The notes under the pieces: model-generated
Databases searched by the model: none
Told to the model about the DNA's origin: nothing
The model's input: the letters and a program-made list of their open reading frames with translations, nothing else
Origin: Escherichia coli
GTDB lineage: Bacteria > Pseudomonadota > Gammaproteobacteria > Enterobacterales > Enterobacteriaceae
NCBI RefSeq assembly: GCF_003334765.1
Contig: NZ_QOWT01000103.1
Strand: one strand, 5' to 3'
Length of the DNA: 729 nucleotides
Shown here: positions 1 through 729 of the stretch, in pieces
Position numbering within the stretch: position 1 is the stretch's first letter
Layout of the letters: the number at the start of each line of letters is the position of its first letter
Translations under genes and position numbers: made by a program

Positions 1-267
1 GTGGATGCCGGGCGACAATTATTATCTTCACAGGGGGATGCAATAAGAAATATTGAGGGATTCGCAGATGGCGGGATCGGCATGTCTTTTGATGCAATCA
101 GAGGGGCTTTTTACGATGCAGGAACACGATCAACGACAATGGCGAATAACACAACTGCTATAGGCAAAACCGATGACCTTGGATTCGACGCCTCTCGTGT
201 CGTGCCAACAGCTAATGAAAACCGTCCACGTAACATCGCCTTTAATTATATTGTGAGGGCTGCATAA
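1..267 (+). CDS. Tail fibre protein, C-terminal (distal tip) fragment; 5' end lies outside the window
   Basis: Frame +1 is open from base 1 to a TAA stop at 265-267. The GTG at 1-3 is most likely an internal Val codon, not a start. The 88 translated residues (…NENRPRNIAFNYIVRAA*) are rich in Gly/Ala/Thr/Asn/Asp and contain no His, Cys or Trp, which suits a fibre tip domain. The main support is context: the stop overlaps the start of a recognisable tfa gene, the canonical fibre-then-chaperone order. Family assignment is from context and composition, not a database hit. Confidence 0.65.
   Translation: MDAGRQLLSSQGDAIRNIEGFADGGIGMSFDAIRGAFYDAGTRSTTMANNTTAIGKTDDLGFDASRVVPTANENRPRNIAFNYIVRAA
254..259 (+). 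promoter_or_regulatory. Shine-Dalgarno-like ribosome binding site for tfa, embedded in the 3' end of the fibre gene
   Basis: TGAGGG at 254-259 (core GAGG 255-258) lies 8 nt upstream of the tfa ATG at 267. With the TAATG overlap this fits translational coupling. Confidence 0.5.
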
Positions 268-729
268 TGAAACCTGTTTTTGATGAAAATGGGCTGGCTA
301 CAGTACCGGGTAATATGCGTTGTTTTTATTATGAGGCAGTTACGTATGAATATACTGGCTGGTCTGATGAATATATTAATACTGGCGTAAGTATGCCCGC
401 CTGTTCCACTGGTATTGACCCGGGCGAATACATTCCGGGAAGAGTGGCAGTATTTACGGGTAAGGGATGGAGCCATGAAGAAGACCATCGCAATGAGACT
501 GTTTACTCAACAGAAAATGGCGCAGCTGTTACAGTGGATTATATCGGTGCCATCAAAGACGGTTATGTCACGCTTTCACCGTTAACGCCATACGATAAAT
601 GGGATGGTGAGAAATGGGTGACGGATACCGAGGCACAGCATAGCGCCGCACTAGACGCGGCAGAAGTAAAGCGCCAGTCGCTGATTGATGCTGCAATGGC
701 TTCCATCAGTCTGATTCAGCTGAAATTAC
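267..729 (+). CDS. tfa: Tail fibre assembly protein (Tfa-type chaperone, Caudovirales tail fibre assembly family); 3' end lies outside the window
   Basis: ATG at 267-269 opens frame +3, which stays open for 154 codons to the window edge (last full codon 726-728). My translation is MKPVFDENGLATVPGNMRCFYYEAVTYEYTGWSDEYINTGVSMPACSTGIDPGEYIPGRVAVFTGKGWSHEEDHRNETVYSTENGAAVTVDYIGAIKDGYVTLSPLTPYDKWDGEKWVTDTEAQHSAALDAAEVKRQSLIDAAMASISLIQLKL. From memory, the stretch …VAVF…W…EDHR..TVY…W.G..WV.DTEA… lines up with lambda Tfa (…[26 protein letters not shown]…YQKWNGTAWVKDTEAEK…KKSLMQ…), and the N-terminal VFDEN motif resembles the IVYDEN motif inside P2 gpG and Mu U. A GAGG at 255-258 sits 8 nt upstream of the ATG. 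Confidence 0.85.
   Translation, partial: MKPVFDENGLATVPGNMRCFYYEAVTYEYTGWSDEYINTGVSMPACSTGIDPGEYIPGRVAVFTGKGWSHEEDHRNETVYSTENGAAVTVDYIGAIKDGYVTLSPLTPYDKWDGEKWVTDTEAQHSAALDAAEVKRQSLIDAAMASISLIQLKL

What the first reader, a model, noticed from the sequence alone, without database searches (positions are those of the whole stretch)
261..286. Weak resemblance to a Hin/Gin-type crossover half-site at the tfa start
TGTTTTTGATGA (275-286) matches 10 of 12 positions of the hixL half-site GGTTTTTGATAA as I remember it. The expected partner half-site (261-272) matches poorly (about 5 of 12), and the central dinucleotide is CC rather than AA. The VFDE codons at the tfa N-terminus can account for the match without any recombination role. 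I flag it only because inversion systems are associated with this kind of locus.
Basis: partly seen in the sequence, partly recalled or inferred. Interest (0 to 1): 0.15.

Follow-up and report, generated by a model that had tools for sequence, protein, structure and literature searches.

The report
Chance look-alike at tfa gene start
The flagged 26 bases are the ordinary junction between a phage tail-fibre gene and its assembly-chaperone gene; they resemble one half of a DNA-inversion site by coding coincidence, and the real inversion sites of this gene cassette lie about 470 bp upstream (outside the window) and about 1.3 kb downstream of the tfa start in intact relatives.

Summary
It is not more than chance or coding would give. 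6.5% of shuffled windows match that one half-site equally well, and 64% match one of the 19 published Din-family half-sites. The peptide P-V-F-D-E forces 7 of the 12 matches. As a 26-bp site it scores -12 bits, against 22-35 for published sites. In phage SKA5, other phages and 119 viral contigs with the same junction, the cassette sits inside a Pin-type invertible segment. The true 26-bp sites (pixL-identical in several) lie 466-544 bp upstream of the tfa ATG, with an inverted partner 1.28-1.8 kb downstream, often next to an invertase. No locus has a site at the tfa start, an inverted copy of the junction or a hybrid junction. The window's closest matches (one mismatch) are an E. coli sbcB-dacD prophage remnant that keeps only an internal 886-bp piece of the segment, with no site and no invertase. 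Verdict: ordinary, not a recombination site.

The parts
1..267 (+). 3' end (88 codons plus stop TAA at 265-267) of a tail-fibre variable C-terminal, receptor-binding cassette (Sv type)
   Evidence: ORF listed. PHROG phrog_523 'tail collar fiber protein', E = 1.2e-21. Homologous to the SKA5 'tail fiber protein' at L002 7806-8267.
255..259 (+). Shine-Dalgarno-like GAGGG for tfa, ending 7-8 nt before the ATG
   Evidence: Read directly from the sequence. Invariant in the five-sequence alignment.
265..269 (+). TAATG stop/start overlap: stf stop TAA at 265-267, tfa start ATG at 267-269
   Evidence: The same arrangement is annotated in L001, L002 and L003. Translational coupling is inferred from the overlap.
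267..729 (+). 5' 463 nt (154 codons) of tfa, the tail fibre assembly chaperone; it runs off the window
   Evidence: Translation. For the full-length homolog: Pfam PF02413 Caudo_TAP, E = 7e-25; phrog_105 'tail fiber assembly', E = 1.6e-80, covering residues 1-194.
261..286 (+). The flagged 26-mer: last stf codon and stop, tfa ATG, then codons K-P-V-F-D-E. Not a recombination site.
   Evidence: Matrix score -12.2/-11.5 bits against 22-35 for real sites. No inverted copy in any locus.
275..286 (+). Half-site look-alike TGTTTTTGATGA (10/12 to the hix half-site): third base of the Pro codon, Val, Phe and Asp codons, and the first two bases of the Glu codon
   Evidence: 13/200 shuffles match as well; 7/12 positions are forced by the peptide.

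Best explanation
Window 261-286 is the translationally coupled junction between a tail-fibre receptor-binding cassette and its chaperone gene tfa. It consists of a Shine-Dalgarno GAGGG, a stop/start overlap TAATG, and the first codons Lys-Pro-Val-Phe-Asp-Glu. The T-run followed by GAT, which looks like the outer part of a hix half-site, is simply GTT-TTT-GAT-GA (Val-Phe-Asp-Glu). It has no role in site-specific recombination. The cassette does belong to a family that is switched by DNA inversion. In intact phages a Pin-type serine invertase acts on two canonical 26-bp sites of the form TTCTCCCAAACC-AA-(G/C)GTTT.... One lies at the constant/variable boundary of stf, about 470 bp upstream of the tfa ATG, which would be near window coordinate -211. 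The other lies in inverted orientation about 1.3-1.8 kb downstream of the ATG, beside the invertase gene. The window's tfa start sits in the interior of that segment. In the window's closest genomic matches, only an internal 886-bp piece of the segment survives in a decayed prophage, so no inversion can occur there. Shown here: gene identities, site positions, absence of a partner site and of hybrid junctions, and the chance statistics. Inferred: translational coupling, and that the raised nucleotide conservation of codons 1-7 reflects translation-initiation constraint.
For: Gene identities. Chance level of the half-site and weakness of the full site. The peptide forces 7/12 matches, and 14% of synonymous encodings reach 10/12 or better. 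Allele ATGACCCCAATTTTTGATGAA (M-T-P-I-F-D-E) in 611R5, 606R2 and L031 destroys AAAC and GTTT but keeps F-D-E, within otherwise intact pixL/pixR segments. More distant Tfa proteins keep the motif as protein with other codons: ST405 A-V-F-D as GCA GTA TTT GAT, HK97 L-D-E-N-G. True sites: SKA5 L002 9620-9645 is identical to published pixL over 26/26 bases, with a partner at 7789-7814 and the invertase at 7166-7729. The same architecture is found in 500465-2, 611R5, 606R2 and four E. coli chromosomes. Among 119 viral contigs with the native junction, 102 of 108 with enough flank have an upstream site, at -466 to -544 in 101 and at -1250 in one; 70 of 82 have an inverted partner at +1277 to +1803; 65 have an invertase homolog; none has a Din site of 20 bits or more within -40/+20 of the ATG; none has an inverted copy of the junction. 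Hybrid-junction scans of 2.9 million viral contigs gave 0, 0 and 4 unrelated chance hits. Remnant context: L001 and L139 share only 7958-8843 with SKA5's segment, have no Din site above 8.1 bits in 16.7 kb, and give no invertase tblastn hit. A single core-base mismatch already prevents ligation of Hin recombinants (PMC4817059); the flagged core CC differs from AA at both bases.
Against: hixR shows that a functional site can have one very poor half-site (leave-one-out score 9.6), so the poor left half alone does not exclude function. Codons 2-10 of tfa are more conserved at synonymous positions than the rest of the gene in three diverged relatives: 18/22 identical codons against 66/149. Some nucleotide-level constraint therefore exists whose cause I did not establish; the local RNA fold is unremarkable (z = -1.24) and shows no covariation. 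The exact source genome of the window was not found, since the best matches differ at one base, so its flanks are inferred from near-identical loci.
Confidence: 0.93

Rival explanations
1. The tfa start is a secondary (quasi) crossover site. A Pin/Hin-type invertase binds the good half-site TCATCAAAAACA and occasionally recombines it with a canonical pix site, producing rare deletions or inversions that uncouple stf from tfa.
For: The half-site is 10/12 to the best hix half. A functional site can have one poor half, as hixR does. Intact relatives carry an invertase within about 1-2 kb. Quasi-sites used by Cin at low frequency are described in the older literature (Iida and Hiestand-Nauer, 1980s; recalled from memory, not checked here).
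Against: The core CC differs at both bases from the AA core of all pix-type partners, and one core mismatch already blocks ligation of recombinants (PMC4817059). The full-site score is -12 bits, about 20 bits below even hixR. The inner AAAC/GTTT spacing is 2 bp instead of 4. No true hybrid junction was found in 2.9 million viral contigs, against 119 native junctions. The TPIF allele loses the inner motifs with no change in architecture.
Confidence: 0.02
2. The junction is a decayed, non-functional relic of a Min-type (mix) crossover site. In Min-like multi-cassette arrays a crossover site directly follows each tail-fibre cassette and overlaps its stop codon, and the tfa start may have replaced or overwritten such a site.
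For: In plasmid pKOr024_2 (L032) the cassette homologous to window 150-267 ends ...AGGGCGGCATAA. Against it, window 261-272 matches 7/12 and 275-286 matches 6/12.
Against: All 7 left-half matches come from the shared stf 3' end (GCATAA and neighbouring bases), so they reflect homology of the coding end rather than of a site. Past the stop, two indels are needed to align AAAC and GTTT, the core matches 0/2, and the matrix score is -11.5. Short 4-mer matches with free gaps are expected by chance. The tfa start sequence is explained by a protein motif conserved across Tfa relatives.
Confidence: 0.03
3. The near-invariance of ATGAAACCTGTTTTTGATGAA across diverged tfa genes reflects a conserved nucleic-acid element other than a recombination site, such as a regulatory RNA hairpin or a protein-binding site controlling tfa translation.
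For: Identical codons in positions 2-10 are 18/22, against 66/149 in codons 11-101, in three relatives of 49-56% protein identity. The adjacent stf end is less conserved. A hairpin at 273-293 is predicted.
Against: The fold z-score is -1.24, with 24/200 shuffles folding as well. The consensus hairpin energy is -3.9 kcal/mol with 0 compensatory pairs. The three lineages are not independent and the sample is small. The TPIF allele shows the sequence can change. General selection on the first ~10 codons for efficient initiation (established knowledge) is a sufficient explanation.
Confidence: 0.05

Closest known systems
Pin / P-segment inversion system of the E. coli e14 element (pixL, pixR)
   Same: Intact relatives of the window's cassette have exactly this architecture: two opposed Sv-tfa cassettes between inverted 26-bp sites, next to a serine invertase annotated pinE. 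Several loci carry sites identical to published pixL (TTCTCCCAAACCAAGGTTTTCGAGAG) and pixR (TTCTCCCAAACCAACGTTTATGAAAA).
   Different: The flagged 26-mer is not one of these sites. It lies in the interior of the segment, about 470 bp from the nearer end. The window's closest genomic matches have lost both sites and the invertase.
Hin / hixL-hixR of the Salmonella flagellar phase-variation switch
   Same: 275-286 matches the shared hix half-site GGTTTTTGATAA at 10/12.
   Different: The left half matches only 5/12. The core is CC rather than AA. There is no partner. The full-site score is -12 bits, against 30.9 for hixL and 9.6 for hixR. The locus is a phage tail-fibre region, not a flagellin promoter switch.
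Gin / G segment of phage Mu and Cin / C segment of phage P1
   Same: The same logic of host-range switching by inversion of Sv-tfa (U/U') cassettes, with crossover sites at the Sc/Sv boundary inside the tail-fibre gene. The true sites found here occupy that position.
   Different: In none of these systems is the tfa (U) start a crossover site, and it is not one here either.
Min multiple-inversion system of plasmid p15B (mix sites)
   Same: In the Min-like plasmid pKOr024_2, a mix-type site directly follows the stop codon of a cassette homologous to window 150-267 and overlaps it, in the same register as the flagged 26-mer.
   Different: In the window that position is occupied by the tfa start. 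Only the shared stf 3' end (GCATAA) aligns, and the sequence past the stop does not score as a site (-11.5 bits).
Translationally coupled stf-tfa gene pairs of lambdoid, P2-like and Mu-like phages
   Same: A TAATG overlap, an SD inside the stf 3' end, and a Tfa of the Caudo_TAP family. The same junction is present in HK97-like, P2-like and Mu-tail-like relatives.
   Different: Nothing of note; this is what the flagged region is.

Membership tests
Din-family (Hin/Gin/Cin/Pin/Min) 26-bp crossover site | Two 12-bp imperfectly inverted half-sites matching TTNTCNNAAACC, flanking a 2-bp core | tested here: not met
   The right half matches 10/12 and the left half 5/12 (hixL) or 4/12 (consensus half). 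The inner AAAC and GTTT are 2 bp apart instead of 4. Matrix score is -12.2/-11.5 bits, against 22-35 for published sites.
Din-family (Hin/Gin/Cin/Pin/Min) 26-bp crossover site | Core dinucleotide AA (or GA), identical in both partner sites | tested here: not met
   The core at 273-274 is CC. All 20 sites in PMC3241671 Table 3 have AA or GA. One core mismatch blocks ligation of recombinants (PMC4817059).
Din-family (Hin/Gin/Cin/Pin/Min) 26-bp crossover site | A partner site in inverted orientation within a few kb | tested here: not met
   No inverted copy of the 26-mer at up to 7 mismatches in L001, L002 or 22 viral loci. None of the 21-mer at up to 4 mismatches in 119 loci.
Din-family (Hin/Gin/Cin/Pin/Min) 26-bp crossover site | Lies at an end of the invertible segment (the constant/variable boundary) | tested here: not met
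   Segment ends lie 466-544 bp upstream and 1277-1803 bp downstream of the tfa ATG. The flagged site is interior to the segment.
Din-family (Hin/Gin/Cin/Pin/Min) 26-bp crossover site | Serine invertase gene adjacent | tested here: inconclusive
   Absent from the window's closest matches L001 and L139. Present in 65 of 119 related loci and in SKA5, but there it is paired with the canonical sites, not with the flagged one.
Din-family (Hin/Gin/Cin/Pin/Min) 26-bp crossover site | Recombination products: both orientations, or hybrid junctions, with a breakpoint at the core | tested here: not met
   Three hybrid-junction patterns were scanned in 2.9 million viral contigs, giving 0, 0 and 4 unrelated chance hits, against 119 native junctions.
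Din-family (Hin/Gin/Cin/Pin/Min) 26-bp crossover site | Bound and cleaved by the invertase, with a Fis-bound enhancer in cis | not testable with these tools
   This needs gel-shift and cleavage assays. The enhancer was not searched for.
Pin-type invertible tail-fibre segment (the cassette as a whole) | Two opposed Sv-tfa cassettes between inverted 26-bp sites beside an invertase | tested here: met
   Met in intact relatives: SKA5, 500465-2, 611R5, 606R2, four E. coli chromosomes and most of the 119 viral loci. Not met in the window's closest matches, which keep only an internal fragment.
Tail fibre assembly protein gene (Caudo_TAP) with coupled start | An ORF matching PF02413 / phrog_105 from residue 1, with an SD and a start overlapping the upstream stop | tested here: met
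   PF02413 E = 7e-25. phrog_105 E = 1.6e-80 over residues 1-194. GAGGG at 255-259 and TAATG at 265-269.

The most novel reading that the evidence does not exclude
The almost invariant first 21 nt of tfa (ATGAAACCTGTTTTTGATGAA), kept even between Tfa proteins of about 50% identity, might be more than a translation-initiation constraint. It could be a vestige of, or a weak binding site derived from, the mix-type crossover sites that directly follow tail-fibre cassettes in Min-like arrays. That would link the origin of stf-tfa cassettes to multi-cassette inversion arrays, or give invertases a rarely used secondary site.
Probability: 0.03. Interest if true: 0.35.

Novelty: not a real feature. Interest (0 to 1): 0.04.

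Why it matters
It matters little. The result removes a false lead and places the window correctly. The window is an internal fragment of a well-known kind of host-range switch, a Pin-type invertible tail-fibre segment, and in its closest matches it survives in a decayed E. coli prophage that can no longer invert. The practical lesson for scanning is that one 10/12 half-site match is uninformative for Din-family sites. Real sites are recognisable by the full 26-bp pattern, an AA/GA core, an inverted partner, and a position at the constant/variable boundary of the fibre gene. Had the quasi-site reading been true, it would have been a modest addition to the biology of secondary crossover sites.

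Tried and rejected
(1) Finding the exact source of the window. No complete E. coli genome matches at 100%; the best differ by one base, at window 523. Two exact-pattern scans of the species-representative genomes found nothing, so context was taken from the near-identical loci L001 and L139.

(2) Quasi-site use. Scans for three kinds of hybrid junction in viral contigs gave 0, 0 and 4 hits. The four hits were low-GC environmental contigs with no similarity to the stf/tfa region.

(3) Decayed mix site. The register coincidence with L032 is real, but it is explained by the shared stf 3' end.

(4) Whether invertase action at cryptic sites made the remnant's deletion endpoints. The best matrix scores near the breakpoints (SKA5 coordinates 615, 7958 and 8843) range from -7.6 to -1.8 bits, so there is no sign of it.

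(5) A conserved RNA structure at the junction. The z-score is -1.24 and there is no covariation.

(6) The two contigs with the junction duplicated in direct orientation, considered as a possible multi-site system. L027 is a tandem duplication of the whole segment whose middle joint contains an ambiguous base inside a back-to-back fusion of inner half-sites, so it is most likely an assembly artefact.

(7) A wide protein-database search for Tfa N-termini was not run. A tblastn search of the phage collection gave enough diverged relatives.

Full report
WHAT THE WINDOW IS. The 729-base window holds the last 88 codons of a tail-fibre receptor-binding cassette (1-267, stop TAA at 265-267). It also holds the first 154 codons of a tail fibre assembly gene, tfa, which starts at ATG 267-269 and runs off the window. 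The upstream ORF matches PHROG 'tail collar fiber protein' (E = 1.2e-21). The full-length tfa homolog matches phrog_105 from residue 1 (E = 1.6e-80) and Pfam Caudo_TAP (E = 7e-25). The two genes overlap by one base (TAATG), with a GAGGG Shine-Dalgarno at 255-259. The flagged 26-mer (261-286) is exactly this junction...GCA TAA / ATG AAA CCT GTT TTT GAT GA.

CHECKING THE OBSERVATION. PMC3241671 Table 3 lists hixL as TTCTTGAAAACC-AA-GGTTTTTGATAA. Window 275-286 matches its right half at 10/12, 261-272 matches the left half at 5/12, and the core is CC.

The match is not more than chance. 13 of 200 dinucleotide-preserving shuffles of the window have an equally good match to this single 12-mer. If any of the 19 distinct published Din-family half-sites is allowed, 320 of 500 shuffles have one.

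I built a position weight matrix from the 13 unique enteric sites in that table. It scores published sites at 22-33 bits leave-one-out, with hixR an outlier at 9.6. The flagged 26-mer scores -12.2/-11.5 bits, the best neighbouring register scores -1.1, and every one of 500 shuffled windows reaches that. The inner AAAC and GTTT blocks are 2 bp apart in the window (270-273 and 276-279), against 4 bp in real sites. That is why each half aligns only in its own register.

The peptide P-V-F-D-E fixes 7 of the 12 matching positions, and 14% of its synonymous encodings reach 10/12 or better.

WHERE THE REAL SITES ARE. The window is 96.8% identical to part of phage SKA5. There it lies between a DNA invertase (L002 7166-7729) and a second, opposed tfa-stf pair. 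The strongest inverted repeat in that region is 7796-7815 / 9619-9638. The site at 9620-9645 is identical over 26/26 bases to published pixL, and its partner at 7789-7814 shares the inner half TTCTCCCAAACC-AA. The scores are 35.3 and 22.2 bits.

The same layout, with 30-35-bit sites that include exact pixL and pixR, is found in phages 500465-2, 611R5 and 606R2 and in four E. coli chromosomes annotated with pinE.

An exact scan for the junction found 119 viral contigs. Of 108 with enough upstream flank, 102 have a site of 20 bits or more upstream of the tfa ATG. It lies at -466 to -544 in 101 of them (modes -469, -478 and -544) and at -1250 in one. Of 82 with enough downstream flank, 70 have an inverted partner at +1277 to +1803. 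65 carry an invertase homolog in the DNA held. None has a Din-type site within -40/+20 of the ATG, and none has an inverted copy of the junction.

For the window, the nearer true site would lie near coordinate -211, outside the window.

THE WINDOW'S OWN CONTEXT. No exact source was found. The best matches differ only at window position 523. They are a prophage remnant between sbcB and dacD, present in many E. coli strains. That remnant shares only 7958-8843 of L001 with SKA5's segment, an 886-bp internal piece. It has no Din-type site above 8.1 bits in 16.7 kb and gives no invertase hit.

TESTS OF THE MORE INTERESTING READINGS.

(a) Quasi-site. Recombination at the flagged core with a pix site would leave hybrid junctions. 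Three such patterns gave 0, 0 and 4 hits in 2.9 million viral contigs, and the four hits are unrelated low-GC environmental sequences. A single core-base difference already prevents ligation of Hin recombinants (PMC4817059), and CC differs from AA at both bases.

(b) Relic mix site. In the Min-like plasmid pKOr024_2, eight mix-type sites (25.9-30.6 bits) separate short tail-fibre cassettes. The site after the cassette homologous to window 150-267 overlaps its stop codon in the same register as the flagged 26-mer. The 7/12 left-half match comes entirely from the shared stf 3' end. Past the stop the sequences do not align without two indels, and the score is -11.5 bits.

(c) Sequence variation. 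The allele ATGACCCCAATTTTTGATGAA (M-T-P-I-F-D-E) in 611R5, 606R2 and L031 loses both AAAC and GTTT while the segment's pixL and pixR sites are intact. More distant Tfa proteins keep V-F-D or L-D-E-N-G with other codons.

A LOOSE END. In three relatives of 49-56% protein identity, codons 2-10 are identical to the window's in 18 of 22 conserved-residue codons, against 66 of 149 in codons 11-101. The stf end just upstream is less conserved. I attribute this to the general constraint on translation-initiation regions (established knowledge; an inference here). The local RNA fold is unremarkable, with z = -1.24. A weak hairpin at 273-293 shows no compensatory changes. The sample is small and the lineages are not independent.

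VERDICT. The locus type does belong to a known Pin-type inversion system, whose real sites lie elsewhere and are lost in the window's closest matches. Novelty: not a real feature. Interest: very low.

Noticed in passing
L027 2071-5750 (middle joint 3902-3930); L021 tfa ATGs at 2834 and 4412: Two short viral contigs carry the stf-end/tfa-start junction twice in direct orientation. L027 is a tandem duplication of the whole ~1.83-kb invertible segment at 99.7% identity. Its middle joint reads TTCTCCCAAACCAAnTTGGTTTGGGAGAA, two inner half-sites fused around an ambiguous base. L021 has four Din-type sites and a partial duplication. This is most likely an assembly artefact caused by mixed segment orientations.
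   Followed up: partly
L032 (plasmid pKOr024_2, NZ_CP147095.1) 2123-5635: A Min-like multiple-inversion region: eight mix-type sites (25.9-30.6 bits) in the same orientation, spaced about 430-545 bp, each overlapping the stop codon of the preceding short tail-fibre cassette, beside a recombinase gene. One cassette is homologous to window 150-267.
   Followed up: partly
L137 (HK97) 1978-2003 and L135 (mEp043) 2032-2057: The stf genes of HK97 and mEp043 carry a 27.1-bit Din-type site (TTCTCCCAAACCAAGGTTTGTGCGAG) about 470-500 bp upstream of tfa, although no invertase or opposed cassette is annotated nearby. It looks like a relic crossover site kept as coding sequence.
   Followed up: no
window 267-296 (tfa codons 1-10): The first 21 nt of tfa are nearly invariant at the DNA level in Tfa relatives of about 50% protein identity (MLG42 21/21, YP3 20/21, mEp043 19/21), and synonymous identity is higher here than in the rest of the gene. 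No RNA structure support was found. A translation-initiation constraint is assumed but untested.
   Followed up: partly
L001 6239-7960 and 7958-8843 (window = L001 8001-8729): The sbcB-dacD prophage remnant joins an inverted early-region block (97.5% identical to SKA5 L002 615-2336) directly to the middle of the Sv cassette. This creates an annotated chimeric 'hypothetical protein' ORF (L001 7759-8046) that overlaps the first 46 bases of the window. The breakpoints show no Din-like sequence.
   Followed up: partly
window 253-267 and 579-729: These are mosaic boundaries. Many E. coli and phage hits begin at window ~226-253 (the conserved stf C-terminal end plus SD). Some plasmid hits end exactly at the stf stop (267). 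A large set of Klebsiella, Salmonella and Citrobacter phages share only 579-729, the conserved Tfa C-terminal part, at 94-97% identity. The stf/tfa junction and the Tfa domain boundary therefore behave as module boundaries.
   Followed up: no
L004 5475-5789, L005 5448-5762, L031 4448-4714, L028 4522-5078: Several otherwise intact pixL/pixR segments have truncated or frameshifted invertase genes, so the segment is probably frozen in one orientation in those prophages.
   Followed up: no
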